DNA of 64,000 nucleotides. Origin: Novosphingobium sp. (GTDB lineage: Bacteria > Pseudomonadota > Alphaproteobacteria > Sphingomonadales > Sphingomonadaceae). Within the stretch, counting starts at the first letter, position 1. Every line of letters begins with the position of its first letter. This document shows positions 8,257 through 30,491 of the stretch, piece by piece. The DNA is taken from contig JANPMA010000299.1 in the NCBI GenBank assembly GCA_031422595.1, positions 3,003-67,002 on the forward strand. The letters are read 5' to 3'. The notes beneath the pieces are model-generated. The model was not told where the DNA came from. It saw only the letters and a program-made list of their open reading frames with translations, and ran no database searches. The translations under genes and the position numbers were made by a program.

Positions 8257-8323
8257 CATCGCAAGTGGCCATTTGTTGACGTGTGGGGTCGCAACCACGG
8301 GTTCTAAAGTGAAGGAAGCGGCT

Positions 8324-12072: not shown

Positions 12073-12235
12073 GGTGGCGACGGTTTACCCGGCGCGAGGG
12101 CATGACCGTGCCCGCCGGATCAAGGGCTATGCAAGGGCTCAACATAAGCATAGCCTGACCGGCGGGAGCGAGGACGCGACGCGGAACCGGAGGTTGAAGC
12201 ACAGTTCATCAAGCGCGCGTACCGGGAGAAATCCG

Positions 12236-13591: not shown

Positions 13592-13595
13592 ACCA

Positions 13596-14130: not shown

Positions 14131-15051
14131 CTAGCGAACGCCCAGTGCCGCCGCTTGCTCGCGCAGCTCGTTCGCCTTTCCAGGATTTGCGGCCACTGCC
14201 GACATCAGCGCCTTGCGGGCCAAGTCGGGCTGGCCGAGCGTCATACGGCTGCGGATGAGCATGACCCAGCCGTCCACATTGGTCGGATCGGTCTTGAGCC
14301 TGGCTTCGAGCCGGGCGACCATGCCTTCGGCCATTGTGCGTTGTTCAGACGGACGCAGCGCTGACGCGCGGTTGATGTCTTCGGCGCTCGGCCCGGCCAG
14401 GGCGGGCGCGGGCACCGGAAGCTGAGCGGCAGGTTGCTGGACCGCCGCGAGCTGTTTGGCTACGGCGATATGGTTGATCTTGGCCGCCTGCACAATTGTG
14501 CGGCGCAGGTCTGCTTCCCAGGCAGCACCCGGCGGCGTGTCGGCGAGCAACGCCAGCCAGCTGTCGATCGCGCCTTGGTGATCGCCGCTGAGGTCTTGTT
14601 TCACCGCCAGAAAATAGCGCGCGCGCGGGTCTTTGGGATCGAGCGCCACCGCGCGTTCGAAGTCGGTGGCGGCAGCGGCGGGCATCGGATCGCGCGCGCT
14701 GGCCATGACCCGCGCCTCGCCGCGCCCCGACCAGAACGAGGCTTGCTGCGGGGCCAGCTTCACTGCCGCGTCAAAGGCGGCCACGGCCTCATCGAAGCGG
14801 CCTGATTCGAAATAGGCCCCGGCAAGGGCCGACCAGGCCCTGCCGTCCTGAGGATTGTCGCGGGCTCGTGCCTCCAGCGCTGCCAGCGGATCGCCAGTTT
14901 CACCGGTCGACGCAACGGCTTGGCTGGACTCGACGCCGGGAACGCCGGAATGACGCCTGAGCGAAATGCCGATGGAGAAGCCGGCCAAAAGGATTGCCAC
15001 CAGCAAGATCCAGGTGCTGACGCGCCAACGGCCGGTCTGTCCTTCTGGCAT
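14131..15051 (-). CDS. TPR protein, cytochrome c maturation factor CcmI/CycH-like
   Basis: N-terminal TM, then TPR-like repeats (AWSALAGAYFESGRFDEAVAAFDAAVKL). The C-terminal part MAEGMVARLEARLKTDPTNVDGWVMLIRSRMTLGQPDLA resembles the CycH C-terminus. Confidence 0.6.
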   Translation of the reverse strand: MPEGQTGRWRVSTWILLVAILLAGFSIGISLRRHSGVPGVESSQAVASTGETGDPLAALEARARDNPQDGRAWSALAGAYFESGRFDEAVAAFDAAVKLAPQQASFWSGRGEARVMASARDPMPAAAATDFERAVALDPKDPRARYFLAVKQDLSGDHQGAIDSWLALLADTPPGAAWEADLRRTIVQAAKINHIAVAKQLAAVQQPAAQLPVPAPALAGPSAEDINRASALRPSEQRTMAEGMVARLEARLKTDPTNVDGWVMLIRSRMTLGQPDLARKALMSAVAANPGKANELREQAAALGVR

Positions 15052-15192: not shown

Positions 15193-17637
15193 GTGCCAGA
15201 TCGGGTGCGCATCGCCATCGTCGGGTCAGGGCCGGCAGGGCTGAGTGCAGCAGCGCGCGCGGCTCAGCTTGGGCTGACCCACGTGCTCCTCGAGAAGACC
15301 AAGCACCTCTCCGACACGATCTTCAAATACCAGAAGGGCAAGCATGTCATGGCGACGCCCGCCGCGCTGGTGCTGCGCTCGGACCTGCCGTTCGATGCCG
15401 GCCGGCGCGAGATGATACTGGGCGGCTGGGAAGAGCAGTCTGCAGCGCACGGGGTCAACGTGCAATACGATGCCGAAGTGCAGAGCATCGCTGGCGAAGC
15501 AGGCAATTTTGCCATCACGCTCAAGAGCGGCGCGGAAGTGCTGGCCGAGACTGTGATCCTGGCCATCGGCACCCAGGGCAATCCCAATCTCGTCCGCTGC
15601 CCGGTAGGGGAAGACTCGGTGGTCCAGTACCAGCTCGACGATCCCGCCGAATACAACGACGAGCACATTTTCGTGATCGGCGGCGGCGATGCCGGGATTG
15701 AAAATGCACTGGGGCTTGCCGCCGACCCGGCGCAGGGCAACGTGGTCAGCCTGGTAAATCGCTCGGCCGACTTCGCCACCGCGAAAGACGCCAACGTCAA
15801 GGCGCTGATGGCCGCCCGCGATGCCGGACGGATCACGCTCTACGTCGAGACCACGACCGCGCGGATCGATCAGGGCGAAGTTGCACTCGATACCCGCGAC
15901 GGTGAGGTTATCGTGCGCTGCGACCGGGTGATCGCGCGGATGGGTTCGGCCCCGCCACGCGCTTTTGTCGAAGCTTGCGGGATTGCATTTACCGGACCCG
16001 ACCGGCTGGCGCTGCCAGCGCTTTCGCCCTCGTTCGAGACCTCGGTGCCCGGGATTCATGTGATCGGCGCGCTGGCCGGCTATCCGCTGATCAAGCATTG
16101 CATGAACCAGGGCTACGATGTGGTCGAGTTCATCAACGGCAACCGCGACCTGAAGCCCGCCGACGAGCCGATCCTTGCCGCGAAATTCGCTGCGCTTCCC
16201 GGTCAGCGCTCGGTCGATGAGTGGCTGAACCTGTTCGGCAGTCAGATCGAAGTGTTCCGCGAGGTCTCACCGCTCCAGCTGCGCGAGTTGATGCTCGATA
16301 GCACCGCGCGCTGTTTCGCTCCGGGCGAGGCGCTGTTCGTGCGCAATGATACCGGATCGTCGCTCTTCGCCTTGGCCGAGGGTTCAGTGCTGGTCGAGGT
16401 CGACAAAGACGATCCCGCCAAGGTCGTCCCGATCGCCCAAGGTGAAATCGTTGGCGAGGTCGGGCTGATCTCCGGGCGCCGGCGCGGGGCGACTGTGCGC
16501 GCCGACGGGCCAGTAGTCGCGGTCGAGCTGTCACGGACCGCAGCGCTCAAGCTGATCGCCACCGTGCCGGCGGCCGGGCGAGCCATTATGCGCGTGTCGA
16601 TCGAGCGCCAGCTTCTCCAGTTGTTCGGCTCGGGCCTTACGCGCGAGGATGTCGCAGAAGTGGTCGAACTGGCCGAAGTGCAAACCATCAAGGCTGGCGA
16701 GGTTGTCCTCACCGAAGGCGAAACCGGGACCGACATCTACGTCATCCGGCGCGGCTCGATGATCGTTGAAAAGAGCATCGGCGGCAAACAAGTGTTCCTC
16801 AATTACCTGCCCGCCGGGAGTTACGTCGGTGAAATGGCGCTGCTTGACGGTACCCCGCGGGTTGCAACGGTTAAGGCAGCGGTCCGGTCCGAGGTGATCC
16901 GCCTGCCCGGTGAGGCCTTTGCTCGGCTACTGACGCGCAAACCCGAATTGCGCCGCAAGGCGCTGGCCGACATGGCGACACGGCGCGACATCAATGCCTT
17001 TATCGAAGGCCGCAAGGACCAGTTTTCCGGCTCGGTCGATATGTACTCCGAAACCGCCCAGTTCCTGGTCGACAATGGTCTGGGCGAAGCGACCGATGTG
17101 CTGCTGATCGACGAAACCCTGTGCATCGGCTGCGACAATTGCGAAAAGGCCTGCGCCGACAGCCATGATGGACTGACCCGGCTCGACCGCGAAGCCGGGC
17201 GGACATACGCCCATCTCCACGTGCCGACCTCGTGCCGTCACTGTGAACACCCGCACTGCATGGCCGACTGTCCGCCCAACGCGATCAAGCGCGGCCCCGA
17301 TGGTGAGGTGGTGATCGATGACACCTGCATCGGTTGCGGCAATTGCCAGCGCAACTGCCCTTACGGTGTAATCCGGATGGACAGCGTCCCGCCGCCCAAG
17401 CCGCCGCTGCTCAGTTGGTTGCTGTTCGGGGCCGGTCCGGGGCCGGGCGAGCCGAGCTATGCGTGGCGCAAGAAGAACGCGCAGGGCACCGAGCAGCCCA
17501 AGAAGGCGATCAAGTGCGACATGTGCTCGGGGATTGAAGGTGGCCCGGCCTGCGTGCGCGCCTGCCCGACCGGCGCGGCGATCCGCGTCGCGCCCGAGGC
17601 CTTCCTTTCGGTCGCCCGGTTGGCGAAGGACGATTGA
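15193..17637 (+). CDS. Fusion oxidoreductase: TrxR-like NAD(P)H flavoprotein + 2 cyclic-nucleotide-binding domains + DmsB/NrfC-type four-cluster [4Fe-4S] module
   Basis: Dinucleotide motifs IVGSGPAG and VIGGGDAG are present, but I saw no CxxC redox disulfide in the flavoprotein part. The cNMP phosphate-binding cassettes are GEVGLISGRRRGATVRA and GEMALLDGTPRVATVKA. The Cys motifs are CIGCDNCEKAC, CRHCEHPHCMADCP, CIGCGNCQRNCP and CDMCSG..ACVRACP. Confidence 0.85.
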   Translation: MPDRVRIAIVGSGPAGLSAAARAAQLGLTHVLLEKTKHLSDTIFKYQKGKHVMATPAALVLRSDLPFDAGRREMILGGWEEQSAAHGVNVQYDAEVQSIAGEAGNFAITLKSGAEVLAETVILAIGTQGNPNLVRCPVGEDSVVQYQLDDPAEYNDEHIFVIGGGDAGIENALGLAADPAQGNVVSLVNRSADFATAKDANVKALMAARDAGRITLYVETTTARIDQGEVALDTRDGEVIVRCDRVIARMGSAPPRAFVEACGIAFTGPDRLALPALSPSFETSVPGIHVIGALAGYPLIKHCMNQGYDVVEFINGNRDLKPADEPILAAKFAALPGQRSVDEWLNLFGSQIEVFREVSPLQLRELMLDSTARCFAPGEALFVRNDTGSSLFALAEGSVLVEVDKDDPAKVVPIAQGEIVGEVGLISGRRRGATVRADGPVVAVELSRTAALKLIATVPAAGRAIMRVSIERQLLQLFGSGLTREDVAEVVELAEVQTIKAGEVVLTEGETGTDIYVIRRGSMIVEKSIGGKQVFLNYLPAGSYVGEMALLDGTPRVATVKAAVRSEVIRLPGEAFARLLTRKPELRRKALADMATRRDINAFIEGRKDQFSGSVDMYSETAQFLVDNGLGEATDVLLIDETLCIGCDNCEKACADSHDGLTRLDREAGRTYAHLHVPTSCRHCEHPHCMADCPPNAIKRGPDGEVVIDDTCIGCGNCQRNCPYGVIRMDSVPPPKPPLLSWLLFGAGPGPGEPSYAWRKKNAQGTEQPKKAIKCDMCSGIEGGPACVRACPTGAAIRVAPEAFLSVARLAKDD

Positions 17638-18513
17638 ATGGCCAGCGCCCCGCGCCCGTCCCGACAAACTGCGCGCCAGCTTACGGCCGATCACGAGGGC
17701 TTCCTGCGTCACCGCAATTTCCGTTGGCTCAAGCACGCGGGCGCACTGTGCGTTGTCGCCATCCTTGCCTACACGCTGATCGATGTGTCGCCCCGCCCGA
17801 ACGGCGGGACCTGGCTGGGGTACACGCTCGGCACCGTCGGGCTCGTGCTGATCGTCTGGCTCTCGCTGCTGGGCGTGCGCAAACGGACAATGACGCGCGG
17901 TGCCTGGTCGCTCAAGGCCTGGACCTCGGCCCACGTCTATCTTGGTCTCGCGCTGATCGTGATTGCCACGCTGCATACCGGCTTTGAATTCGGCTGGAAC
18001 GTCCACACCCTGGGCTATGCGCTGATGCTGTTGGTGATCGCATCGGGCCTGTTCGGGGTCGTGGTCTATTCCGTGCTGCCCGCGGCGCTCAGCAATAATC
18101 GCGAGCAGATGACCCAGCCGCAGATGGTCGAAGCACTCAGCGCGGTCGACCGCCAGCTACAAAGCGCCGCGCAGCCGCTCGATCCGCACTGGGCCGGGCA
18201 GGTCCTCGCCGCGCTTGGGGAGGGAGCTTTTGCCGGCGGCCTGTGGAGCCGGCTTGCCGGAGGCAAGCACGGCAGTGCGACCCAGCAGGCGATCGCCGCG
18301 TTCGACCTTGCCAGCACAGAAGAAGCCGCCGATCCGGCACTGGTCCGGGTCGAAGCGCTGCTCCAGCGCCGTGCCGCGCAGCTCGCCCGGATGCGGCGGC
18401 ACATGCGCCTCAAAGCGCTGCTTGAGGTTTGGCTCTACGTCCATGTCCCTGCAACCTTCGCTCTGATCGCCGCCTTAACCGCGCATGTGATCAGCGTGTT
18501 CTACTATTGGTAG
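17638..18513 (+). CDS. Polytopic inner-membrane protein, possible b-type cytochrome / electron-transfer subunit
   Basis: The ATG directly follows the upstream stop (TGAATG). There are about 5 TM helices. His residues inside helices (SAHVYLGL..ATLHTGFEFGWNVH; YVHVPATF..LTAHVISV) make haem-b ligation plausible but unproven. Confidence 0.55.
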   Translation: MASAPRPSRQTARQLTADHEGFLRHRNFRWLKHAGALCVVAILAYTLIDVSPRPNGGTWLGYTLGTVGLVLIVWLSLLGVRKRTMTRGAWSLKAWTSAHVYLGLALIVIATLHTGFEFGWNVHTLGYALMLLVIASGLFGVVVYSVLPAALSNNREQMTQPQMVEALSAVDRQLQSAAQPLDPHWAGQVLAALGEGAFAGGLWSRLAGGKHGSATQQAIAAFDLASTEEAADPALVRVEALLQRRAAQLARMRRHMRLKALLEVWLYVHVPATFALIAALTAHVISVFYYW

Positions 18514-18528: not shown

Positions 18529-20226
18529 ATGATCTTTCGGCTCAGAACCGTCGAGACCACCGCCCAGGGCCGCGAAATCGTGCGCGACCGCGACGTTACA
18601 GCGGAGCGGATCACCCTTGGCCGTTCGGCGGACAACACGCTGCACCTGCCCGATCTCGCGCTCGATCCGTACCACGCGGCAATCACGGCGAGCGGCGGCA
18701 GGATCGCCATCGAGGCCCTCGGGTCGCCGGACTTCACTCTCGATGGCCGGCAGGTCAGCGAGGGTACGATCGATCCGCAAGCCGGCGGCGAGCTGCGCTT
18801 TGGCAGCTATCGCATTGCAGTTTCCGAGGCCGAGGATGCAGCGGTTCTGCTCACGATCGGTCAGATCGCCGAGGCATCAGGCACTTCGGAGGAAAAGTCC
18901 GGTTTCTCGCTTGCCGGACGAATGCCGGGCAAGCGGGCAATGTCGTGGCTGCTTGCGCTGGCGATCCTCGCCGCCTTTCTTGTCCTGCCGATCGTCAGCC
19001 AGATGGCCCGCGATCCCGCCGCCAAACAGGGCGTGCTGGGCGACGCGGCGTGGAGTTCGGGTCCGCTTAGCCAGGCGCACCATCAGCTCGAAGGCAAATG
19101 CGAGGCCTGTCACGTCAAGCCGTTTGAAGCGGTGCGCGATACCGCTTGCCTGACCTGCCACAAGGATGTCCACGAGCATGCTGCGCCCACCCGACTGGCC
19201 AATGCCCGCGGGCCTGACGGCTTGGGCGATCGGTTGCAGTGGCAGATCGCGCATTTGTTTGGCAAACCCGGCCCCGGGGCCTGTTCGGATTGTCATTCCG
19301 AACACCAAGGCGCCGGGCGCATGCCGCCGCCGCAGCAAGCCTTTTGCGCCGACTGCCACGGCTCGCTCAAGGATCGCCTGCCCGACACCGCACTTGGCAA
19401 CGCCGCCGATTTCGGCAAGGTGCATCCCGAATTCCGCCCCGCGCTGGCGCTGACTGCGGGCAGCGACAGGTTGACCCGGGTCTCGCTCGCCGAACATCCG
19501 CGCGAGGCGAACGGGCTGACCTTCACCCATGACCAGCACCTCGATCCGCGCGGCGGGGTGGCCCAGATGGCGCTGCGGCTTGGCATGGGGAGCGGCGGAC
19601 TGGGCTGCGCCGCCTGTCACCACCCAACCGCCGACGGGGTCCGCTTCCTGCCGATCGACATGGAGCGTGACTGCGAGGGATGCCACAGCCTGGCCTATGA
19701 CAAGGTCGGCGGTACCTTCCGGCGTCTGAAACACGGCGATACCGACCAGATGATCGCAGATCTCTCGGTCGCGCCGCGCGCGTCCAGTCCAATCGTGACC
19801 GGACGGCGGCGGCCCGGCGACTATGCCAATGGCGGAACCTATTTCGCCCGCTTCACGCCGCCGGGCGGGGGGATCGGATCGGTCGCGCAGGCCCTGTCGC
19901 GCGACGGAATCTGCGGCGAATGCCACACCCCGCGATTGGCCGGCGGGCGTTTCTCGGTGGTGCCGGTGACCCAGACCACGCGTTATTTCAATCACGGCTG
20001 GTTCAACCATGCGGCGCACAAGGAGGAAAAGTGCACCAGTTGCCACGCCGCGGATCGTTCCAACTTGGCGACCGACCTGCTGCTCCCCGATCTCAAATCG
20101 TGCCGCAGCTGTCATTTGGGCGAGGAAGCCCCGCGCGCCAAGGTTCCCTCGACCTGCGCAATGTGTCACGATTATCATCTCAAGCCGCTGGCTCCGCGCG
20201 GGGTCGAACCGCGACGAAAGCGATGA
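18529..20226 (+). CDS. FHA-domain / single-TM / decahaem c-type cytochrome
   Basis: N-terminal FHA-like region (ITLGRSADNTLHLPDLALDPYHAAI). One TM (WLLALAILAAFLVLPIV). Ten CxxCH motifs follow: CEACH, CLTCH, CSDCH, CADCH, CAACH, CEGCH, CGECH, CTSCH, CRSCH and CAMCH. Confidence 0.85.
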   Translation: MIFRLRTVETTAQGREIVRDRDVTAERITLGRSADNTLHLPDLALDPYHAAITASGGRIAIEALGSPDFTLDGRQVSEGTIDPQAGGELRFGSYRIAVSEAEDAAVLLTIGQIAEASGTSEEKSGFSLAGRMPGKRAMSWLLALAILAAFLVLPIVSQMARDPAAKQGVLGDAAWSSGPLSQAHHQLEGKCEACHVKPFEAVRDTACLTCHKDVHEHAAPTRLANARGPDGLGDRLQWQIAHLFGKPGPGACSDCHSEHQGAGRMPPPQQAFCADCHGSLKDRLPDTALGNAADFGKVHPEFRPALALTAGSDRLTRVSLAEHPREANGLTFTHDQHLDPRGGVAQMALRLGMGSGGLGCAACHHPTADGVRFLPIDMERDCEGCHSLAYDKVGGTFRRLKHGDTDQMIADLSVAPRASSPIVTGRRRPGDYANGGTYFARFTPPGGGIGSVAQALSRDGICGECHTPRLAGGRFSVVPVTQTTRYFNHGWFNHAAHKEEKCTSCHAADRSNLATDLLLPDLKSCRSCHLGEEAPRAKVPSTCAMCHDYHLKPLAPRGVEPRRKR

Positions 20227-20242: not shown

Positions 20243-21100
20243 ATGCTGATCGCCCAGATTACCGATTGCCATATCGGCTTTTTCCGCAGCGACGTCGGCG
20301 GAGCCAATACGCGGCGATTGCGCGCCGCGCTCGACCGGCTGCGCGATGGCCCCAATCGCCCCGATCTGCTCCTGCTCTCGGGCGATCTCACCGAATTCGG
20401 CGATGCGGCGAGTTACGCACGGCTGGCGGCAATGCTGGCCGACCTGCCCTTCCCGGTTCACCTGATGGTCGGCAACCACGATGACCGCGATGCCCTGCGC
20501 GCGACCTTTCCGGGGACGCCATTGGACCGGGGCTTCGTGCAATATGTTCTGCCCCTGCTCGGTTTGCGCCTGATCGCGCTGGATACGCTCGAGCCGGGGC
20601 GCCACGGCGGCGCCTTCTGTGCTGAGCGGGCCAAGTGGCTGAACGACCAGTTTGATGCTGACCCGGCGACTCCGGTGGTGATCGCAATGCATCATCCGCC
20701 GCTCGCCTCCGGGCTCGACTGGCTCGACGGAGCTGAGGACGCGCCATGGATCGCCCGCTTCACCGAGGCAATCGCCGGACGCCCGCAAGTGCGCGCGATC
20801 CTTGCCGGACACCTGCACCGCACAATCCACGCCAGCGTTGCGGGCGTACCGCTGACGGTCTGCCCCTCAACCGCGCCGACTGTCGCGCTCAACCTGAACC
20901 CGATCGACCCCGAGCGGCCCGATGGCCGGGCGATGATCGTCGATGAACCCGCGGCATTTGGCTTGCACCGCTGGAACGGCGAACGGCTGATATCGCATTT
21001 CGAGAGCCTGTCCGCCGGGCATCCCTGGGCCGTGCTCGCCAGCTACGATGCGGGGATGCAGGAACTGGTGCGCCAGAACGTCCGCGAGCAGCGCGACTGA
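20243..21100 (+). CDS. Class III cyclic-nucleotide phosphodiesterase (CpdA/Icc-type metallophosphoesterase)
   Basis: Ordered motifs ITDCH, LSGDL, VGNHDD, AMHHPP and AGHLH correspond to D-x-H / GD / GNHD / H / GHxH. The gene comes last in the plus-strand operon. GTG at 20237 is an alternative start. Confidence 0.8.
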   Translation: MLIAQITDCHIGFFRSDVGGANTRRLRAALDRLRDGPNRPDLLLLSGDLTEFGDAASYARLAAMLADLPFPVHLMVGNHDDRDALRATFPGTPLDRGFVQYVLPLLGLRLIALDTLEPGRHGGAFCAERAKWLNDQFDADPATPVVIAMHHPPLASGLDWLDGAEDAPWIARFTEAIAGRPQVRAILAGHLHRTIHASVAGVPLTVCPSTAPTVALNLNPIDPERPDGRAMIVDEPAAFGLHRWNGERLISHFESLSAGHPWAVLASYDAGMQELVRQNVREQRD

Positions 21101-21110
21101 TCTGCGATCC

Positions 21111-24100
21111 TCATCGCCCCGCGCGCCAGGCGCTCATTTCCCCATTGTCGTTGACTCTGTAGAGCAAGCCGCTCCGGTTCAGGAACAACCGCTCCATCTC
21201 GGGCCGGGTGAAGGGGCGGGAGCCAAGCCGGCCGAACACCGCGATCTGCCCGCCGGTTTCATCCACCGCGCGGTCGCGGTCGAGGCCCTTTGACATGGCA
21301 ATGGCCGGAGAAGGGGTCTTCGCCCAAGCGATCAACTCGGGCATCGGCGCGGGCGAAAAGCCGTAGAAGTTGCGCTGGCTTTCCGGCGAGGTCAGCTGCA
21401 GCACTTTCATCCCGTTGCGGCCGTCGGCGACGTAAGCGATCAGCGAGGCATTGGTCGAGGCGACCACCACGTCCTCGGCATCGTTTAGCTGCCCGTCGAA
21501 AGTCACCTTCTGGTAGATTCGTGGGCTACGTGGACGCGTAACATCGACGATCACCAAGCCATCCGCCTTGGCCGCGACATAGGCATAAGTCCGTGCAACA
21601 TAGACCCGCCGCGCATCGGCAAGCGGCACCGTCGCCTCGGGCACCGCCAGCGGTTTTCGCAAGTCAGTCACGTCGAACAACTTGAGCCCGTCGCGGTCGG
21701 TGACCCACAGGTAACGGAATTGCAGCGCAGAGGCGCGCGCGTCGACCAGTTCGCGCACCGCAGCGAGCCGGGGTTTGAGCGGATCGGACAGATCGACGAC
21801 GACCAGACCCTTGGTGGCGGTGATGTAGGCCACCTCACCCGCCAGCACGATATGCCGCGCCCCGTTCAGCACGCCGTCGGGGTTCCAGGTCACCGCGCGG
21901 TGCAGCTTGTTGTTGCGGAATTCACCGTCGGAGAAAGTGTCCACATCGACCAGGATCAACCCTTCGACGCTGTCGGTGATGGCCGCGTAGTTGTAGATCG
22001 GCAGGAACGGCTGCTCCTGGTTGACGTCGCGCATCATCTGGGTGTTGCGTTCAGGCGCGATCGGCTGGTTGGTCGGCAGCGCCATGCAGGTCGCGTCAGC
22101 GGTATCGACCTGGGCATCGCCGGCAAACGGGGCCGAGATGATCGGATCGGCAAAACCCTTGTTGGCAATTGCCGCGACGTCATAGACGTGGAAGCCGCCC
22201 TTACCCTGCGCGACAAACATGTATTCGCCGCGCAGTTGCAGGCACCCGACCTTGTCCGGCGTGCCTTGCACGACGTTGCGGAACTGTTCGACCGGATGAC
22301 TGTCCCCCCCGCCAAGCGAAGCGGTGGTCTTGCCGCGTGTCCAGTTCTTGAGCTCGCGGCTGTTCTGCTCAACGTGCATCCGATAATAATCGGGATAGGC
22401 GTAGCGTTGCAGGTAGGACCCGATCACCGCCTGCGGTTCGTCCCATTCGGTCACCCGCACCGCCTCGAGTCCGCCATCGAGCCCGGTCCAGGCATTGAGC
22501 CCGACGAAGTTGACGTAGTTGGTCCCGAGCAACAGCGTCTGTGCCATGATTGCATTGTTGTCCTCGTTCATGCTGACGTGGCAATCGCTGCAAGTCTTGG
22601 TCTCCTGCGTGCGGACAGTGTGCGCAAAATGCGGTGCGAAGGCCTGGCTTGAAAAGCCCGGCGAGCTGATTGGCGGTTGTTGGGCGTAGATGCGCTCGCG
22701 GCTGCTGTTGGTTGAAGACAGAATAAGCGCAGAAGACGATCTGACCGGCGACACCAGGCCGCCCTTGGTGGTCATGTGCTTGCCTAGTTGGAACATGTCG
22801 TCGCGCGCCACTTGCGGGTTGTAGGTCGCAAAATTGCGCGTTTCCTCCCCCTCGAAACGGTTCACCGAGCTTTTCCAGTTGGCCTCGATCGGCAAGTGGC
22901 ATCCGCCGCAACTGGTGGTCCAGGCAAGGTGACACGAGAAGCAGGCGATCTTGTCGTCCTGGTGCGCACGATCTGCTTTGGGCACACCGGGTCCGAAGCC
23001 GAAACTGCCATCATCCGCCCCCGACCGGCTCATCAGCTTGGCGCGCGCCGACTTGTGGTTGAAATAGGGCGATGCCGGATCGACGCTGTCCTTGGTCAGA
23101 TGCACCTGCCACGACAGGCCCGGATCGACGATCGAACGCTGGATCAGCACCCTTCGGCCAAACTCGTTGTTGACCCATTCAAACCGGCGCTGACCATCCG
23201 GGTTGCGGAGCAAGGCCAGATTGTTGCCTTTGGGCGGTGCGGCAGGCCCCGAGGTCAGCAGCTTGGGATAGGCTTCGGCGGTGCCGTGACAATCAGCGCA
23301 GCCGATCTCCACCGCATTTGCGACTTCGCCGTAGATCAGCCCGTTGCCATGGCTGTCCTGCGCAAAGTGGCAATCGGCGCATTGCATGCCCTTCTCGGCG
23401 TGGATGTCCATCAGGTGTACGGTCTTGCCCGGGTTGACCCCTGGTTGAACGAATTTCCCCTGCCCCTGGGTGCGCCATTTCTCGGGATCGTCGGGTGCGA
23501 CAATATGCGCCTTGTCGGTCCCCCAAGTTGCCATCGAGCCTCCCGCATCGAGCAGGTTTCCGGCCCGGTCGCGCTTGAACACGCCACGGAAATTCCAGCC
23601 GTGGCTGTGATAGTCGGCAAATTGGGTATCCTTGAGACCGGCATTGAGATCGTAAACGTTGCGCAGAAAATCGAGATCGCCCCACAGGCCGCTTGCGGCT
23701 GCACCTTCGGGGTTGCGTTCGTTGATCGAGCGGATCGTCGCAGCATCCGGATAGCGCTGATGCTTGTACAGGCGCTCATAATCCGCATCGCTCATCCCCG
23801 GCGGGCGCGGACTACGGTTTTCGGGGCCTGGCCACATCGAGGACGCGTCGGCCTCATAATCCCACATCGTATAGCCAAGGAACGAATTCACGAACACGTT
23901 GGGCTGATGCATATGGCAACTCATGCACTGTGCAGTCGGGATCGCGCGGGTGAAGACGTGGCCGAGCGGATGCCCGGATTCCTTGTCCGAGCCGGCATCC
24001 GACGATCCATGATCACCTTTGAGCCGGCCGTGATTACCGGTCTTGCTGGTGATGGTCGGATCGACGGTCACGCTCTGTCCGTCGCGCCCAAATTGCGCAT

Positions 24101-25157
24101 AGATCGAGCTGTGGCGCGGTTCACGGTCGTTGGCGTAGATCACATGGCAGCCCGAGCAGCCCGATCCGCGATAGTCGCCGGGCTGGTCGTTGGTCCCCAT
24201 GAACCACATGAAAGGATCGTTGAGCCTGGTCTTGTGGATGTTGAGCACCGGGATGGCGACCCTGAGGCCGGTCCCGGGACCGCGGTTCGATTGTTTGAGA
24301 TCCGGGCGTCCCGGTTCTTCCAGCCGCTGGATTGATCCAGTCGGATTGGGCAAGCCGACCTCGGCAAAGCCGGTGCCATTGTTGCGCCCCCCGTCCTCGA
24401 ACACCCGGAACACGTCACCCGGGGGCACTACATTCCAGCGCGGCAAGGGATAGAGCGCAGCCAGCGCCCCGCGCGCCGCCTGACGCTTGCTCAGCGTTCC
24501 AGGCGCAACCACCTTGGCCGGCTTGCCGTCGCGGGTATAGGCTTCGCCGAAGACGTAGTTCTTGAGCGGGACGATCCCGTTGTTATAGGCCGCGCCGCCC
24601 CACAGCATCGCCCCGCTCGACATCAGCGAGCGCTCGGCCGCTTCGATTGTCGGTAAATGACACGCACCGCAAGCTTCGCGGGCGACTCGGTAATCGCCCG
24701 GATTGACGAACCGGATAAACTCCGGCGCCTCGCGATTGAGCAGTGAATAGCTGCGTTGCGGGTTGGCGGATGAAGGGAAATGCCAAGCCCCGGGATATTG
24801 CGGCAGCACATGCGCGCGGTCACGCATCGCGGTGTAGGTGGAGTCATCGCGCGGCAGCGAGGGATTTCCGAGAATGCTTGCATCGCCGCCATGGCAGTCG
24901 GTGCAGCCCAGTCGCACCGCGGGCGATACGTGCATGGTCGGGGCTTCGGTCTTGACGTGGCACGACTGGCAGCCATCGGTCTTGGCAGCTGCCTGCTGTT
25001 CGGTTTGCTTTGCCGGGGCCGGTGGAGCCGTCACCAGCGCGTAGTTACGGACAATCTGCTTCTCACCCTCACTGGCCCGGATGCCGGAGGAATGGAGCAA
25101 GACGGCCATGGCGCAGGTCAATGTGGCAAGAGCCAGCAGGGCGCGCTGTATCGGCAT
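21111..25157 (-). CDS. Secreted decahaem c-type cytochrome fused to a C-terminal LVIVD-repeat beta-propeller
   Basis: 1348 aa with a signal peptide (LALATLTCAMAVLL). Ten CxxCH motifs: CQSCH, CTDCH, CGACH, CSGCH, CMSCH, CADCH x2, CFSCH, CGGCH and CSDCH. The last ~450 aa carry about six LVIVD-type repeats (GLILVDVD, GLVVVDLSDP, GLKLFDVTDL, GLVIVDVTRP, GMKVLQLTSP). Confidence 0.85.
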   Translation of the reverse strand: MPIQRALLALATLTCAMAVLLHSSGIRASEGEKQIVRNYALVTAPPAPAKQTEQQAAAKTDGCQSCHVKTEAPTMHVSPAVRLGCTDCHGGDASILGNPSLPRDDSTYTAMRDRAHVLPQYPGAWHFPSSANPQRSYSLLNREAPEFIRFVNPGDYRVAREACGACHLPTIEAAERSLMSSGAMLWGGAAYNNGIVPLKNYVFGEAYTRDGKPAKVVAPGTLSKRQAARGALAALYPLPRWNVVPPGDVFRVFEDGGRNNGTGFAEVGLPNPTGSIQRLEEPGRPDLKQSNRGPGTGLRVAIPVLNIHKTRLNDPFMWFMGTNDQPGDYRGSGCSGCHVIYANDREPRHSSIYAQFGRDGQSVTVDPTITSKTGNHGRLKGDHGSSDAGSDKESGHPLGHVFTRAIPTAQCMSCHMHQPNVFVNSFLGYTMWDYEADASSMWPGPENRSPRPPGMSDADYERLYKHQRYPDAATIRSINERNPEGAAASGLWGDLDFLRNVYDLNAGLKDTQFADYHSHGWNFRGVFKRDRAGNLLDAGGSMATWGTDKAHIVAPDDPEKWRTQGQGKFVQPGVNPGKTVHLMDIHAEKGMQCADCHFAQDSHGNGLIYGEVANAVEIGCADCHGTAEAYPKLLTSGPAAPPKGNNLALLRNPDGQRRFEWVNNEFGRRVLIQRSIVDPGLSWQVHLTKDSVDPASPYFNHKSARAKLMSRSGADDGSFGFGPGVPKADRAHQDDKIACFSCHLAWTTSCGGCHLPIEANWKSSVNRFEGEETRNFATYNPQVARDDMFQLGKHMTTKGGLVSPVRSSSALILSSTNSSRERIYAQQPPISSPGFSSQAFAPHFAHTVRTQETKTCSDCHVSMNEDNNAIMAQTLLLGTNYVNFVGLNAWTGLDGGLEAVRVTEWDEPQAVIGSYLQRYAYPDYYRMHVEQNSRELKNWTRGKTTASLGGGDSHPVEQFRNVVQGTPDKVGCLQLRGEYMFVAQGKGGFHVYDVAAIANKGFADPIISAPFAGDAQVDTADATCMALPTNQPIAPERNTQMMRDVNQEQPFLPIYNYAAITDSVEGLILVDVDTFSDGEFRNNKLHRAVTWNPDGVLNGARHIVLAGEVAYITATKGLVVVDLSDPLKPRLAAVRELVDARASALQFRYLWVTDRDGLKLFDVTDLRKPLAVPEATVPLADARRVYVARTYAYVAAKADGLVIVDVTRPRSPRIYQKVTFDGQLNDAEDVVVASTNASLIAYVADGRNGMKVLQLTSPESQRNFYGFSPAPMPELIAWAKTPSPAIAMSKGLDRDRAVDETGGQIAVFGRLGSRPFTRPEMERLFLNRSGLLYRVNDNGEMSAWRAGR

Positions 25158-29028: not shown

Positions 29029-30380
29029 CGCAGCGCACCGATCGCATTGACAGCTTGCCGCAGCGCTGCCCGAAAAGCACCCGGATCATATTCTGCAGGA
29101 CTCGCTACGGCGGCGTAGGCACGGTTGATGCTGGCGCGAATCCCGGCTGCGGCGCCGACCGTGACCCGGCCCTCGCGGACCAGCAGGTTGAGCAGCGTAT
29201 CAACTGCCATCACCGACTGGGCCGACCCGGCGTAGTCGGTGAAGCGAACCGAGATTGCCCGCCCCCCGATCGCTGCGATGACCTGGAAAGCAGTATCGCT
29301 ACCGCCCGGCCCGCGCGCAACCGCGTCTCCGAGCGCACTTGCCGCTGCAACCAGCCGGCCCGCTGCAGCCACCGCCTCCGGGCGCCCTTTTTCCATCGCG
29401 GCGTGGAAATTGCGGGCGGCTGCATCGAACTGCGCGGCTTCGCGCGGCGCCAGAACCTGGGCCACGGCCGAGAGCATGATGATGTTCTCATCGTTGAAAG
29501 GCGGTTGACCGAATGGGATCGGCCGAGCCGGATTTGTCTCAAACGTCCGCGCCCGCTGCGGATTGTCGTCGATCCCGCGATGGCAGCTGTGGCAATCGTA
29601 AAAGGTGAATTCCGGGAATATCCCGTTGCTGGCCAGGTCTGACTGCCGAAACAAGCTGAGCGAGCGCTGTACTGCCTCGGCCTGTCCCACCGCCCACAGC
29701 CGGACGCTGTCGTTCGAGGGCTTACGCGCGGTGTAGTCGGCGTCCACGTCCCAATGCTGTTGCAGCGAGGAGAACAGGTCGAGTTCGAACGAAAGCCGGG
29801 GATGTCCCGCTGCCATCATCGCATGCGTTACGAACTGGCCAGGCTTGCCGCTGCCCAAATGGCAATCGAGACAAACCGCAGCGCGCACCTTGGGGTTGTC
29901 GAGCGCGCTCATGCCGCCAGCCACGTTGCCAGCATGGCTCGCCCCAACCGCATAGTGACTGGCAATCCAGCCCGATGCCGGGCCGTGGCAGCCTTCGCAG
30001 CCCACCCCGTCGGAAATCAGGAAGCGGTCGCCGCGCGCGCCTGCCGGGGTGGCATGGCAACCGAGGCAAGCCGCCGCCGAGCCGGCCCGGCCAAGCCCCA
30101 GAGTGCTTGCGATCCGTTCACCGCGCAGCGATACAAGCGCCGCGTAGGTACGGCTGTGTGCGCCGCCCCGCGACGCGGGTTCCTGCCACAACCTGAGTTC
30201 ATCCTGGCGGACAACCTTGCCATCACCATCAGCACGGCCGTGGCAGGTCGAACCGGCGCAGTTGGCGACGCCTTCATAGCGGCCGGAAGCGAGGGCTGCT
30301 CCAGTTGCCGCGCCGGCAAGCGCAGCCATGCCAAGCAGCGCAGCCAGCCTGCGACGAACGGCAGTTCCGAAAGTCGGCAT
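29025..30380 (-). CDS. Secreted multihaem c-type cytochrome (c554 / multihaem family-like)
   Basis: I chose the ATG at 30380 because GGAGGG lies 4 nt upstream. Signal peptide is LAALLGMAALAGAATGAALA. Motifs are CLGCH, CEGCH, CLDCH and CHSCH plus a CAGSTCH (Cx4CH) site. The stop overlaps the next start (ATGA). Confidence 0.8.
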   Translation of the reverse strand: MPTFGTAVRRRLAALLGMAALAGAATGAALASGRYEGVANCAGSTCHGRADGDGKVVRQDELRLWQEPASRGGAHSRTYAALVSLRGERIASTLGLGRAGSAAACLGCHATPAGARGDRFLISDGVGCEGCHGPASGWIASHYAVGASHAGNVAGGMSALDNPKVRAAVCLDCHLGSGKPGQFVTHAMMAAGHPRLSFELDLFSSLQQHWDVDADYTARKPSNDSVRLWAVGQAEAVQRSLSLFRQSDLASNGIFPEFTFYDCHSCHRGIDDNPQRARTFETNPARPIPFGQPPFNDENIIMLSAVAQVLAPREAAQFDAAARNFHAAMEKGRPEAVAAAGRLVAAASALGDAVARGPGGSDTAFQVIAAIGGRAISVRFTDYAGSAQSVMAVDTLLNLLVREGRVTVGAAAGIRASINRAYAAVASPAEYDPGAFRAALRQAVNAIGALR

Positions 30381-30491
30381 GTTGCCCTCCAACCGGTCGC
30401 CAGTCTGGCATGCCGGGCCGGTCGGAGCAAGCATGTCGTCGCGGCTTTGCCCCGTTGCCACCCTGCCCGGTGCAGCCCATAGTCACTTGCG

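What the first reader, a model, noticed from the sequence alone, without database searches (positions are those of the whole stretch)
15193..17637. 814-aa fusion: TrxR-like flavoprotein + two cNMP-binding domains + NrfC/DmsB-type four-cluster ferredoxin module in one cytoplasmic polypeptide
Seen: two dinucleotide-binding motifs with no CxxC redox disulfide, which points to a ferredoxin-NADP-reductase-like protein rather than a true thioredoxin reductase. Two cNMP-binding domains keep the conserved Arg of the phosphate-binding cassette (RRGATVRA and PRVATVKA). Four Cys motifs of the C-x2-C-x2-C-x3-C(P) type are present.

Four-cluster FeS modules of this type are normally separate, Tat-exported subunits of membrane oxidoreductases. 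Here the module is fused to a cytoplasmic NAD(P)H entry point with a nucleotide sensor in between. That suggests allosteric gating of electron flow by cAMP or cGMP.
Basis: partly seen in the sequence, partly recalled or inferred. Interest (0 to 1): 0.7.

Follow-up and report, generated by a model that had tools for sequence, protein, structure and literature searches.

The report
cAMP-sensing flavin–iron-sulfur electron-input protein
This is a real, widely conserved cytoplasmic protein that joins an NAD(P)H-flavin enzyme, two cyclic-nucleotide sensor domains and a four-cluster iron-sulfur wire; it is always encoded beside a two-haem membrane cytochrome and multi-haem cytochromes, so it probably feeds cell-internal electrons into a signal-controlled route across the cell envelope, but nobody has tested this.

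Summary
ORF 15193-17637 (+) encodes an 814-aa soluble protein with four parts:
- a YpdA/TrxR-like flavoprotein with no redox cysteine;
- two cNMP-binding domains with intact phosphate-binding cassettes;
- a 16-Cys, four-[4Fe-4S] module.

All 16 Cys and both dinucleotide motifs are invariant in full-length homologues down to about 30% identity, in Alpha- and Gammaproteobacteria and Acidobacteriota.

The context adds most. The gene is co-operonic with a 5-TM protein carrying four invariant His (a di-haem cytochrome b), an FHA-TM-decahaem cytochrome c and a class-III cNMP phosphodiesterase. A convergent operon encodes a haem-c protein, an HbpS-like lipoprotein, a probable outer-membrane barrel and a decahaem LVIVD protein. 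Two CHASE2 adenylate-cyclase-type genes flank it.

Best reading: a cytoplasmic NAD(P)H entry subunit of a trans-envelope electron conduit, with cAMP acting on the protein itself.

Two preprints have noticed this three-gene module (PtdEFG; the Ferrigenium "NHC" cluster) and call its function unknown. The gating itself is untested.

The parts
15193..17637 (+). 814-aa cytoplasmic fusion protein: flavoprotein, CNB-A, CNB-B and a four-[4Fe-4S] module (PtdE-like)
   Evidence: ORF and translation. Pfam and NCBIfam domains. Full-length homologues of 30-68% identity. AlphaFold2 model with pLDDT 86.9 and pTM 0.80.
15202..16152 (+). FAD/NAD(P)H two-Rossmann domain (aa 4-320), YpdA/TrxR-type FNR-like, with no redox-active Cys
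   Evidence: Pyr_redox_3 and Pyr_redox_2. Foldseek match to 7a7b YpdA, TM 0.83 normalised to the target, and to TrxR-type FNRs 2zbw, 3ab1 and 3lzw. GSGPAG and GGGDAG motifs, no CxxC. Position 15 is A/G/S in all 32 homologues.
16213..16626 (+). cNMP-binding domain A (about aa 341-478), PBC GEVGLISGRRRGATVRA
   Evidence: Pfam cNMP_binding with two stretches. PBC Gly and Glu are nearly invariant and the Arg is kept in 21 of 32 homologues. Domain limits are taken from the model's secondary structure.
16642..17010 (+). cNMP-binding domain B (about aa 484-606), PBC GEMALLDGTPRVATVKA, PKA-like
   Evidence: Best Pfam stretch is aa 497-582. It aligns residue by residue with the cAMP sites of PKA regulatory subunits 6rsx and 5j3u. 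The Arg is kept in 24 of 32 homologues.
17089..17592 (+). Four-cluster [4Fe-4S] ferredoxin module (aa 633-800), HycB/HydN/AegA-N-like
   Evidence: Fer4_11 and related Pfam models. Match to HycB 7z0s_B, aa 637-797, E 5e-21. All 16 Cys are invariant.
17638..18513 (+). 291-aa, 5-TM membrane protein, probably a di-haem cytochrome b (PtdF-like). Its ATG abuts the stop codon of the fusion gene.
   Evidence: TM segments and two H-x13-H pairs. H99, H113, H269 and H283 are invariant in 13-15 orthologues of 26-65% identity. Twelve of 13 orthologues give sub-threshold hits to PF01292, prokaryotic cytochrome b561. It is fused to the FeS protein in P0128.
18529..20226 (+). 565-aa protein: FHA-like cytoplasmic domain, one TM helix and a periplasmic decahaem cytochrome c (PtdG-like)
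   Evidence: 10 CxxCH motifs and one TM at aa 138-156. FHA, E 5e-4, plus cytochrome c3/c7 models. There are exactly 10 CxxCH in all 12 orthologues.
20243..21100 (+). Class-III (CpdA/SpdA-type) cyclic-nucleotide phosphodiesterase, last gene of the operon
   Evidence: Metallophos. NCBIfam SpdA at 155.8 bits and CpdA at 70.6 bits, both below the equivalog cutoffs. The ATG at 20243 lies 16 nt after the decahaem stop. Orthologues sit at the same position in L001, L012 and L082.
21111..25157 (-). 1348-aa secreted decahaem cytochrome c with LVIVD beta-propeller repeats; the most conserved protein of the cluster
   Evidence: Pfam LVIVD and cytochrome c3/c7. 10 CxxCH and a signal peptide. Orthologues of 48-72% identity in 11 loci.
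25157..27046 (-). 629-aa secreted protein, probably an outer-membrane beta-barrel
   Evidence: No Pfam match. It has a signal peptide and ends in ...LLNTVFSF, a C-terminal Phe as in outer-membrane barrels; the barrel assignment is an inference. It is conserved in 12 loci.
27046..29028 (-). 660-aa lipoprotein with three HbpS-like (haem-binding/GlcG-type) repeats
   Evidence: PF03928, three stretches, E 7e-27. Lipobox ...LAACGGG. It is conserved in 12 loci.
29025..30461 (-). 478-aa c-type cytochrome (4 CxxCH plus 1 CxxxxCH), first gene of the minus-strand operon
   Evidence: Cytochrome_C554. Motif count. It is present in only 4 of 13 loci.
30492..32348 (+). CHASE2 sensor plus class III nucleotide cyclase, with adenylate-type specificity residues
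   Evidence: CHASE2 and Guanylate_cyc. The cyclase domain aligns to Cya2 (2w01) and carries Lys in TLDKFIGD and Thr in DYTAIGD. Reading this as the class IIIb adenylate type is an inference from known class III rules.
33768..36008 (+). Second CHASE2 plus class III cyclase
   Evidence: Pfam. A homologous CHASE2-cyclase lies 4 kb upstream of the fusion gene in Chromatiales locus L003.
14131..15051 (-). TPR protein with a CcmH/CycH-type TPR domain, divergent from the fusion gene; possibly a cytochrome-maturation helper
   Evidence: PF23914 at 62.8 bits against a cutoff of 42. It has the same position in L001 and L082, and a homologue lies about 3 kb upstream in L012. The role is inferred.

Best explanation
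The 814-aa protein is the cytoplasmic electron-input subunit of a three-part inner-membrane redox module. That module feeds a larger trans-envelope multi-haem system.

Proposed path:
1. NAD(P)H reduces the FAD of the YpdA/TrxR-type, FNR-like domain.
2. Electrons leave one at a time along four [4Fe-4S] clusters of a HycB-like wire.
3. They pass to the cytoplasm-side haem of the adjacent 5-TM di-haem cytochrome b and cross the membrane through its two haems.
4. They enter the membrane-anchored periplasmic decahaem cytochrome c.
5. From there they can reach the proteins of the convergent operon: the haem-c protein, the HbpS-like lipoprotein, the probable outer-membrane barrel and the LVIVD decahaem cytochrome.

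The two PKA-like cNMP-binding domains lie between the flavoprotein and the FeS wire. They bind cAMP made by the neighbouring CHASE2 cyclases and removed by the operon's own phosphodiesterase. Binding shifts the protein between a state competent for electron transfer and one that is not. Export of reducing power, which would dissipate membrane potential, would then run only on a signal.

Shown: the domain content, the conservation of cofactor ligands, the soluble character, the strict gene linkage, and the presence of cyclase and phosphodiesterase genes.

Inferred: cofactor loading, direction of flow, cAMP as the ligand, gating, and the terminal acceptor.
For: - Domains and ligands: Pfam, NCBIfam and PDB matches for all four parts. 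All 16 Cys and both dinucleotide motifs are invariant over 32 homologues of 30-68% identity. The model is confident and compact (pLDDT 86.9, pTM 0.80). The flavoprotein is closest to YpdA and TrxR-type FNRs.
- No disulfide chemistry: no CxxC, and the YpdA Cys position is A/G/S in every homologue.
- Cytoplasmic: no TM segment and no Tat leader.
- Partner genes: the fusion, cytochrome b and FHA-decahaem genes are adjacent in every informative locus, about 12, from Alpha- and Gammaproteobacteria and Acidobacteriota. In the window the intergenic gaps are 0, 15 and 16 nt.
- Cytochrome b: four His are invariant as two H-x13-H pairs on TM3 and TM5. It is a remote relative of PF01292 in 12 of 13 orthologues. 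Positive-inside topology puts its N-terminus and its 110-aa loop in the cytoplasm (read).
- Rosetta-stone fusions: P0128 joins the flavo-CNB-FeS protein to the cytochrome b in one polypeptide. P0141 and P0134 carry FHA domains at the N-terminus of the flavo-CNB-FeS protein.
- cNMP link: PBC Gly-Glu and Arg are intact in both domains here. Arg is kept in 21/32 (site A) and 24/32 (site B) of the homologues. Site B aligns with PKA cAMP sites. A phosphodiesterase is in the operon. Two CHASE2 cyclases with Lys/Thr adenylate-type residues lie beside the cluster, and one lies beside the cluster in L003.
- Direction: outward flow from NAD(P)H (about -320 mV) is downhill and aided by the membrane potential. 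This follows from established bioenergetics.
Against: - There is no biochemical evidence of any kind.
- The cyclase genes are next to the cluster in only 2 of about 13 loci. The phosphodiesterase is there only in Sphingomonadales and Rhizomicrobium.
- Five of 32 homologues have lost the PBC Arg in both domains yet keep the fold. In part of the family the domains must therefore do something other than bind cNMP.
- The cytochrome b is related to PF01292, a family whose members usually react with quinones. The route may therefore go through the quinone pool rather than straight to the decahaem.
- The relative position of FAD, CNB domains and clusters could not be measured, because no coordinates are returned.
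- The P0128 fusion could be a read-through or a gene-calling artefact, since the two genes abut.
- The cytochrome b model was poor (pLDDT 56.7).
Confidence: 0.5

Rival explanations
1. Quinone-linked module. The fusion protein and the di-haem cytochrome b form an FdnH-FdnI / NarH-NarI-like pair with inverted topology. It works as a cNMP-regulated NAD(P)H:quinone oxidoreductase, or it draws on quinol. The single-TM decahaem would then act separately as a CymA/NapC-like quinol dehydrogenase. Electrons would pass through the quinone pool and not directly from haem b to haem c.
For: Twelve of 13 cytochrome b orthologues give weak hits to PF01292, the family of FdnI, HydC and CybB, which are quinone-reactive. 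Pairing a Fer4_11 four-cluster module with a PF01292 cytochrome is the classical Fdn-N design (established knowledge). The Ferrigenium preprint notes the architectural likeness of the single-TM multihaem protein to CymA and NrfH.
Against: No quinone-site motif was identified. The strict three-gene linkage, and FHA domains found on either the cytochrome c or the FeS protein, suggest that all three proteins form one cytoplasm-anchored complex. All PF01292 hits are below the gathering threshold.
Confidence: 0.2
2. The electron-transfer role is real, but the CNB domains are not cyclic-nucleotide switches. They would be a structural linker or dimerisation scaffold, or they would bind another ligand as many CRP/FNR-type domains do. 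The nearby cyclases and phosphodiesterase would then act on other targets.
For: The PBC Arg is lost in both domains in 5 of 32 homologues and in one domain in 9 more. Cyclase adjacency is seen in only 2 of about 13 loci. The phosphodiesterase scores best against SpdA, which NCBIfam names a 2',3'-cNMP enzyme.
Against: In this protein and most of the family, both PBCs keep the Gly-Glu...Arg-x-Ala-Thr signature, and site B matches PKA cAMP sites closely. A phosphodiesterase gene sits in the same operon in four Alphaproteobacterial loci.
Confidence: 0.2
3. Inward flow. The module takes electrons from periplasmic or extracellular donors, for example Fe(II) via outer cytochromes, and delivers them through haem b and the FeS wire to the flavin to reduce NAD(P)+.
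For: A related module lies in the Fe(II) oxidiser Ferrigenium and is expressed during Fe(II) oxidation; the authors discuss inward transfer. TrxR-type FNRs are reversible enzymes (established knowledge).
Against: Moving electrons inward works against the membrane potential and climbs several hundred mV to the NAD(P)+ couple, and no coupling device is in sight (established bioenergetics). Most hosts here are heterotrophs such as Novosphingobium, Sphingobium and Lysobacter.
Confidence: 0.06
4. Sensor rather than conduit. The flavin and clusters report cytoplasmic redox state, and the CNB domains report cAMP. Together they only regulate the membrane cytochromes, for example through the FHA domain, without carrying bulk electron flux.
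For: Regulatory-type domains (CNB, FHA) are prominent, and there is no evidence for flux.
Against: Four clusters in a HycB-like wire plus a di-haem transmembrane protein make up a long-range transfer chain, not a sensor. There is no output domain such as HTH, kinase or GGDEF. All 16 Cys are invariant even where the CNB sites decay.
Confidence: 0.06
5. It is a thiol-disulfide reductase of the TrxR or YpdA (bacillithiol disulfide reductase) type, with accessory domains.
For: The best NCBIfam hit is YpdA at 116.7 bits and the best fold match is YpdA 7a7b.
Against: The scores are far below the family cutoffs (116.7 against 339.9 for YpdA; 56.7 against 343 for TrxR). There is no CxxC. The YpdA Cys14 position is Ala here and is never Cys in 32 homologues. 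No Cys in the flavoprotein domain is conserved.
Confidence: 0.02

Closest known systems
PtdE-PtdF-PtdG of the 'ptd' cluster (bioRxiv 10.1101/2023.11.21.568154)
   Same: The preprint describes the same trio in the same order: a cNMP-binding protein with 4Fe-4S clusters, a transmembrane 'ferric reductase-like' protein and a periplasmic decahaem. It reports the cluster in Alpha- and Gammaproteobacteria, Nitrospirales and Planctomycetes and calls the function 'completely unknown'.
   Different: The outer parts differ. ptd has a pentahaem PtdA, a porin PtdB, a separate flavoprotein PtdC and a tetrahaem PtdD. Here there are an HbpS-like lipoprotein, a 629-aa barrel candidate and an LVIVD decahaem. 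The preprint counts two clusters and does not mention the N-terminal flavoprotein, the four His of the membrane protein, or cyclase and phosphodiesterase genes.
Ferrigenium straubiae 'NHC' cluster (bioRxiv 10.64898/2026.01.22.701106)
   Same: It has an FHA-TM-multihaem cytochrome c, a 5-TM protein and a cytosolic [4Fe-4S] protein encoded together. The authors state that the FHA-plus-multihaem combination was previously unreported and that the function is unknown.
   Different: The cytochrome there is a nonahaem, and the cluster sits next to nirK. The authors found no redox motif in the 5-TM protein, whereas here four invariant His are shown. It is not stated whether their FeS protein has flavin or CNB domains.
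HycB / HydN / AegA N-terminal module (cytoplasmic four-cluster ferredoxins)
   Same: The FeS module is closest to these in sequence: 7z0s_B at E 5e-21, AegA at 69 bits, HydN at 59 bits. It has the same 16-Cys layout and is cytoplasmic. AegA is also fused to a flavoprotein.
   Different: In AegA the FeS module is N-terminal and the flavoprotein is GltD-like. None of these proteins has CNB domains or a di-haem b / multihaem c partner.
FdnH-FdnI and NarH-NarI (four-cluster subunit plus di-haem cytochrome b anchor)
   Same: A four-cluster wire docks on a di-haem transmembrane cytochrome b. The membrane protein here is a remote PF01292 relative, like FdnI. In NarHI the FeS subunit is cytoplasmic, as here.
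   Different: Those anchors exchange electrons with quinones and serve molybdoenzymes. Here the donor is a flavoprotein and the gene-linked acceptor is a decahaem c. The His ligands are distributed differently, as two H-x13-H pairs on TM3 and TM5.
TrxR-type ferredoxin-NADP+ reductases (B. subtilis YumC 3lzw, C. tepidum 3ab1, T. thermophilus 2zbw) and YpdA/Bdr (7a7b)
   Same: It has the same two-Rossmann fold without a CxxC (Foldseek E 1e-20 to 1e-24). FNRs of this type pass electrons one at a time to FeS proteins.
   Different: Sequence identity is about 20%. Here the ferredoxin is fused in cis behind two CNB domains, and the YpdA catalytic Cys is absent.
PKA/PKG regulatory subunits (tandem CNB-A/CNB-B)
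   Same: It has two CNB domains in tandem with canonical PBCs, and these are the best PDB matches for aa 350-600.
   Different: They regulate a kinase by releasing an inhibitor segment. Here the regulated partners would be redox domains. I found no described precedent for cNMP acting directly on an electron-transfer protein in four literature searches.
NADPH oxidase / ferric reductase (NOX/FRD) and porin-cytochrome conduits (Mtr, Pcc)
   Same: It works like NOX in the sense that NAD(P)H passes electrons to a flavin and then to two bis-His haems across a membrane. It resembles Mtr/Pcc in having periplasmic and outer multihaem cytochromes with a probable barrel.
   Different: There is no PF01794 match. 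The flavin is on a separate soluble subunit with an FeS wire interposed. Known EET pathways start from quinol dehydrogenases, not from NAD(P)H. In Shewanella cAMP controls EET through CRP at the level of transcription, not at the protein.

Membership tests
Low-Mr thioredoxin reductase (TIGR01292) | Score at or above the curated cutoff | tested here: not met
   56.7 bits against a cutoff of 343.45.
Low-Mr thioredoxin reductase (TIGR01292) | Redox-active CxxC in the NADPH domain | tested here: not met
   No CxxC before aa 644. No Cys in the flavoprotein domain is conserved.
YpdA/Bdr bacillithiol disulfide reductase (TIGR04018) | Score at or above the cutoff, and the catalytic Cys in the GGGPCG motif | tested here: not met
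   116.7 bits against 339.9. The motif is GSGPAG, and the position is A/G/S in 32 of 32 homologues. The fold similarity is nevertheless high, TM 0.83.
TrxR-type ferredoxin-NADP+ reductase | Two-Rossmann TrxR fold with FAD and NAD(P)H motifs and without CxxC | tested here: met
   GSGPAG and GGGDAG are invariant. Foldseek matches 2zbw, 3ab1, 3lzw, 6gar and 5ygq at E 1e-19 to 1e-22.
TrxR-type ferredoxin-NADP+ reductase | NAD(P)H:ferredoxin activity and a C-terminal aromatic cap on the flavin | not testable with these tools
   This needs enzyme assays or model coordinates; the tool returns no coordinates.
cNMP-binding domain (PF00027) | Pfam gathering score, and a PBC with Gly-Glu and Arg | tested here: met
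   113.9 bits against 27.5, two stretches. G421/E422/R431 and G546/E547/R556 are present. Site B aligns to PKA cAMP sites.
cNMP-binding domain (PF00027) | Actual binding of cAMP or cGMP | not testable with these tools
   This requires ITC or DSF. The context (phosphodiesterase and cyclases) is supportive only.
Four-cluster ferredoxin of the HycB/DmsB/NrfC superfamily (Fer4_11) | Four Cys groups (16 Cys) and the Pfam gathering score | tested here: met
   Fer4_11 at 40.3 bits against 26.2. Sixteen invariant Cys. HycB 7z0s_B at E 5e-21 over aa 637-797.
NrfC/HybA/DsrO-type periplasmic four-cluster subunits | Twin-arginine (Tat) signal and periplasmic location | tested here: not met
   The N-terminus is the Rossmann strand MPDRVRIAIVGSG, and there is no leader or TM segment. 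NrfC at 42.8 bits against 377.6 and DsrO at 50 against 200.
AegA/YgfT FeS-flavoprotein fusions | N-terminal four-cluster module followed by a GltD-like flavoprotein; equivalog score | tested here: not met
   69.4 bits against 1003, with the match limited to the FeS module. The domain order is reversed and the flavoprotein family is different.
PtdE-like component of the PtdEFG-type module | A CNB plus 4Fe-4S protein encoded directly upstream of a multi-TM 'ferric-reductase-like' protein and a decahaem cytochrome c | tested here: met
   This gene order is found in the window and in all informative loci, and it matches the published description.
PtdE-like component of the PtdEFG-type module | Sequence homology to the published PtdE, and presence of PtdA-D | tested here: inconclusive
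   PtdE sequences and accessions are not in the supplements held. No pentahaem-with-beta-sandwich, porin, PtdC and tetrahaem set was identified here; a different outer gene set is conserved instead.
Prokaryotic cytochrome b561 / Ni_hydr_CYTB (PF01292), for the 291-aa partner | Pfam gathering score; four His ligands for two haems b | tested here: inconclusive
   The window protein gives E 0.16 and 12.2 bits against 30.1. Twelve of 13 orthologues hit weakly, the best at 3.5e-6. Four invariant His lie in TM helices. Haem binding is untested.

The most novel reading that the evidence does not exclude
A second messenger acts directly on an electron-transfer chain. cAMP made by periplasm-sensing CHASE2 cyclases would switch on a quinone-independent conduit that takes electrons from cytoplasmic NAD(P)H through FAD, four FeS clusters, two membrane haems b and about 20 or more haems c to the cell surface. 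This would be a bacterial functional analogue of NADPH oxidase wired to a porin-cytochrome system, present in common aerobic soil and water heterotrophs. It could account for NAD(P)H-dependent extracellular reduction of metals or humics, or superoxide production, whose enzymes are largely unknown.
Probability: 0.25. Interest if true: 0.85.

Novelty: new variant of a known kind. Interest (0 to 1): 0.6.

Why it matters
Known extracellular or periplasmic electron-export routes start from quinol dehydrogenases. Known cAMP control of such routes is transcriptional, through CRP.

This protein would instead give (i) a direct NAD(P)H entry point that bypasses the quinone pool, and (ii) post-translational control of an electron wire by a second messenger.

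The family is large. There are 769 representatives at 50%-identity clustering below E 1e-30 (these include single-domain matches), and about 40 full-length lineages among the best 150. It spans several phyla, including cultivable and genetically tractable Novosphingobium and Sphingobium strains. The hypothesis can therefore be tested directly.

This work also supplies two pieces missing from the two preprints that noticed the module:
- The 'motif-less' 5-TM protein has four invariant His and is a remote cytochrome b561 relative.
- The FeS protein carries its own flavoprotein and a full four-cluster wire.

Tried and rejected
- Structure of the 291-aa membrane protein. With close homologues only (A3, at least 69% identity) the model was poor (pLDDT 56.7, pTM 0.42), so I ran no fold search on it.
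- Geometry of the 814-aa model. The tool returns no coordinates, so the FAD-to-cluster distance and the placement of the CNB domains could not be measured.
- ptd supplements. No PtdE or PtdF accessions or lengths are held.
- Literature. An LVIVD search led only to an unrelated Tenderiales cluster. A peat multihaem preprint mentions none of these components. Searches for CNB plus pyridine-nucleotide oxidoreductase and for cAMP plus EET found no characterised precedent.
- Shorter hits in the representative search (CNB+FeS only, or flavoprotein+CNB only). Most begin or end inside a domain and look like contig-end fragments, so I make no claim about split forms.
- Promoter and terminator scan. Counts were at the level of the shuffles and are uninformative.
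- Disulfide-reductase reading. Rejected on the absent Cys.
- Antisense ORFs overlapping the gene (15226-16098, 16927-18006, minus strand). They recur in other loci only as the mirror image of conserved genes in high-GC DNA and are not treated as genes.

Full report
**1. The observation**

The ORF at 15193-17637 (+) is real. It starts at GTG, is preceded by a GGAGAG stretch, and encodes 814 aa.

Pfam finds a two-Rossmann pyridine-nucleotide oxidoreductase at aa 6-307 (E 5e-30). It also finds two cNMP-binding stretches (E 3.5e-33, 113.9 bits against a cutoff of 27.5) and 4Fe-4S dicluster models within aa 639-795, including Fer4_11.

Direct reading gives:
- GSGPAG at aa 11 and GGGDAG at aa 163.
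- No CxxC before aa 644.
- Phosphate-binding cassettes GEVGLISGRRRGAT (aa 421) and GEMALLDGTPRVAT (aa 546).
- 16 Cys in four groups.

Only two of the four groups have the exact C-x2-C-x2-C-x3-C spacing. The others are C-x2-C-x4-C-x3-CP and C-x2-C-x8-C-x3-CP, which is normal for this superfamily. There is no hydrophobic segment and no Tat leader.

**2. Each part, and what it is closest to**

Flavoprotein. It scores best against YpdA (116.7 bits, cutoff 339.9) and weakly against TrxR (56.7 bits, cutoff 343). An AlphaFold2 model built on 32 diverse homologues is confident (pLDDT 86.9, pTM 0.80). Its N-terminal part superposes on YpdA/Bdr 7a7b (TM 0.83 normalised to the target), and then on TrxR-type ferredoxin-NADP+ reductases 2zbw, 3ab1, 3lzw, 6gar and 5ygq. 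The YpdA catalytic Cys position is Ala here and is never Cys in 32 homologues, and no Cys in this domain is conserved. It is therefore a plain NAD(P)H-flavin electron donor, not a disulfide reductase.

cNMP-binding domains. The middle of the protein matches tandem CNB domains of PKA and PKG regulatory subunits. Site B aligns residue by residue with PKA cAMP sites.

FeS module. The C-terminal module is closest to cytoplasmic four-cluster proteins: HycB 7z0s_B (E 5e-21, aa 637-797), HycB3, HydN and the N-terminal module of AegA. It is less close to NrfC and DsrO. AegA already shows a four-cluster module fused to a flavoprotein.

**3. How widespread it is**

The architecture is common. More than 120 clusters at 90% identity share it at 73% identity or more. 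Sources name them 'cyclic nucleotide-binding domain-containing protein' (Novosphingobium, Sphingomonadales) or give composite JGI labels.

A search of 1.84 billion representatives gave 769 hits below E 1e-30 (these include single-domain matches). About 40 of the best 150 are full-length, at 31-68% identity.

In an alignment of 32 of these, all 16 Cys and both dinucleotide motifs are invariant. The PBC Arg is kept in 21 of 32 (site A) and 24 of 32 (site B). It is kept in both sites in 18, and lost in both in the five most divergent sequences.

Full-length copies occur in:
- Alphaproteobacteria: Novosphingobium, Sphingobium, Rhizomicrobium, Stellaceae and Rubrimonas.
- Gammaproteobacteria: Chromatiales, Steroidobacteraceae, Lysobacter and Wenzhouxiangella.
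- Acidobacteriota: Sulfotelmatobacter and Thermoanaerobaculia.

**4. The neighbourhood**

The plus-strand operon follows the fusion gene closely.
- A 291-aa protein starts with no gap; its ATG abuts the stop codon of the fusion gene. It has five TM helices and two H-x13-H pairs.
- After 15 nt comes a 565-aa protein with an FHA-like domain, one TM helix and ten CxxCH motifs.
- After 16 nt comes a CpdA/SpdA-type class III phosphodiesterase, whose real start is the ATG at 20243.

A convergent minus-strand operon (30461 to 21111) encodes:
- a c-type cytochrome with 4 CxxCH and 1 CxxxxCH;
- a lipoprotein with three HbpS-like repeats;
- a 629-aa secreted protein ending in ...VFSF, which I read as an outer-membrane barrel signature (inference);
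- a 1348-aa decahaem protein with LVIVD repeats.

Divergent from that operon lie two CHASE2 plus class III cyclase genes. The first aligns best to Cya2 (2w01). It carries Lys and Thr at the two substrate-specifying positions, which by the known rules for class III cyclases indicates an adenylate cyclase of subclass IIIb (inference).

**5. Synteny**

Across 13 loci, only six gene families recur:
- the fusion protein;
- the 5-TM protein;
- the FHA-decahaem;
- the HbpS-like lipoprotein;
- the 629-aa protein;
- the LVIVD decahaem.

They are usually collinear on one strand. The fusion, 5-TM and decahaem genes lie in the same cluster in every locus with enough flank.

The phosphodiesterase is found at this position only in Sphingomonadales and Rhizomicrobium. 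A CHASE2 cyclase lies beside the cluster in the window and in a Chromatiales locus.

The four His of the 5-TM protein are invariant in 13-15 orthologues of 26-65% identity. Twelve of 13 orthologues give weak hits to PF01292, prokaryotic cytochrome b561. The positive-inside rule puts its N-terminus and its 110-aa loop in the cytoplasm (read).

Two fusions support physical association:
- P0128 (1110 aa) continues from the FeS module straight into a full copy of the 5-TM protein (E 3e-41). Because the two genes abut, a read-through artefact cannot be excluded.
- P0141 and P0134 carry FHA domains at the N-terminus of the flavo-CNB-FeS protein.

**6. Mechanism**

The best-supported reading is an electron path:

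NAD(P)H → FAD → four [4Fe-4S] → haem b (cytoplasmic side) → haem b (periplasmic side) → decahaem c → outer components.

Outward flow is downhill and aided by the membrane potential. It would also drain reducing power and potential, which gives a reason for tight control.

The CNB pair sits between donor and wire. Together with an operon-encoded phosphodiesterase and adjacent adenylate-type cyclases, it fits cAMP control at the protein level. The control point could be the FAD-to-cluster step or docking to the membrane partner.

- Shown: domains, ligand conservation, solubility, gene linkage and the presence of cNMP-metabolism genes.
- Inferred: cofactor loading, direction of flow, the ligand, gating and the terminal acceptor.

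The main rival is a route through quinones, because PF01292 relatives are usually quinone-reactive, and FdnH-FdnI and NarH-NarI are the closest design analogues. A second rival keeps the wire but denies that the CNB domains bind cNMP; the decayed PBCs in part of the family support this. Inward flow, a pure sensor role and a disulfide-reductase role are unlikely, for the reasons given under the rivals.

**7. What is known**

Two preprints have noticed the module.
- Elbon and co-workers name a ptdABCDEFG cluster in marine bacteria. [quoted passage not shown] They call the function 'completely unknown'.
- A 2026 Ferrigenium preprint describes an FHA-TM-nonahaem, a 5-TM protein with 'no matches to redox active' motifs and a cytosolic [4Fe-4S] protein, again of unknown function.

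I found no biochemical work and no described case of a cyclic nucleotide acting directly on an electron-transfer protein. In Shewanella cAMP controls EET through CRP at the level of transcription.

**8. Verdict**

It is best filed as a new variant of known kinds: an FNR-like flavoprotein, a polyferredoxin wire, a CNB switch and a di-haem anchor feeding a multihaem conduit. The regulatory claim is untested.

Interest 0.6. Confidence in the composite mechanism 0.5: higher for the electron-input role, lower for cAMP gating.

Noticed in passing
window 13563-14129 (+): A 188-aa membrane protein matches the Pycsar effector TM domain (PF18967, E 1e-25) but has no nucleotide-binding domain. It follows a Glu/Leu/Phe/Val dehydrogenase gene (12062-13591). 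The same pair precedes the cluster in Novosphingobium locus L001. Whether it has any link to the cNMP theme is unknown.
   Followed up: partly
window 18529-18900 (FHA-like domain of the decahaem); loci L003-L023, L082: The FHA-like domain keeps the Gly-Arg and the His, but the phosphothreonine-contacting Ser is Asp here and varies across 12 orthologues, and the Asn-Gly is often Asp-Gly. It also hits the YscD-type FHA model. It may be a docking domain rather than a phospho-Thr reader. All 12 orthologues have exactly 10 CxxCH motifs.
   Followed up: partly
P0128, P0141, P0134 (representative proteins, not in the window): Natural fusions were found. P0128 is flavo-CNB-FeS plus the 5-TM cytochrome b. 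P0141 and P0134 carry one or two FHA domains in front of flavo-CNB-FeS. P0133 (1212 aa) has about 400 aa of repetitive sequence inserted within the CNB region.
   Followed up: partly
window 17401-17430 (aa 737-746 of the fusion protein): A hydrophobic/amphipathic stretch, PLLSWLLFG, lies in the 45-aa insert between the third and fourth Cys groups. It is conserved as LLxxLLxG across the family and is helical in the model. It could dock on the membrane or on the cytochrome b.
   Followed up: no
window 21111-25157 (-): The LVIVD decahaem protein is the most conserved component of the cluster, at 48-72% identity where the fusion protein is 39-77% and the decahaem 25-55%. It may be the catalytic end of the system. 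It also shows a weak local likeness to ExtM of a selenite/tellurite reduction operon (64 bits against a cutoff of 800).
   Followed up: partly
window 32857-33771 (+): An M48 family peptidase gene sits between the two CHASE2-cyclase genes (30492-32348 and 33768-36008), and its stop overlaps the start of the second cyclase gene.
   Followed up: no
window 8273-11362 (+): A 1029-aa protein has an N-terminal NAD(P)-binding Rossmann domain of the amine-oxidase/desaturase type and a weak acetoacetate-decarboxylase-like region. It was not found in the other 12 loci compared in the all-against-all search.
   Followed up: no
L001 1-6632; L082 (Sphingobium herbicidovorans pMSHV): In Novosphingobium sp. 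JCM 18896 a VirB/Trb type IV secretion gene set lies a few kb upstream of the cluster. In S. herbicidovorans the cluster is on a 959-kb conjugative megaplasmid, with a second metallophosphoesterase and an EAL-domain gene nearby. This hints at horizontal mobility and extra second-messenger genes.
   Followed up: no
window 15226-16098 (-), 16927-18006 (-), 25397-27112 (+): Long antisense ORFs overlap the real genes and appear 'conserved' in BLAST across loci. They are mirror images of conserved genes in high-GC DNA, not genes.
   Followed up: yes
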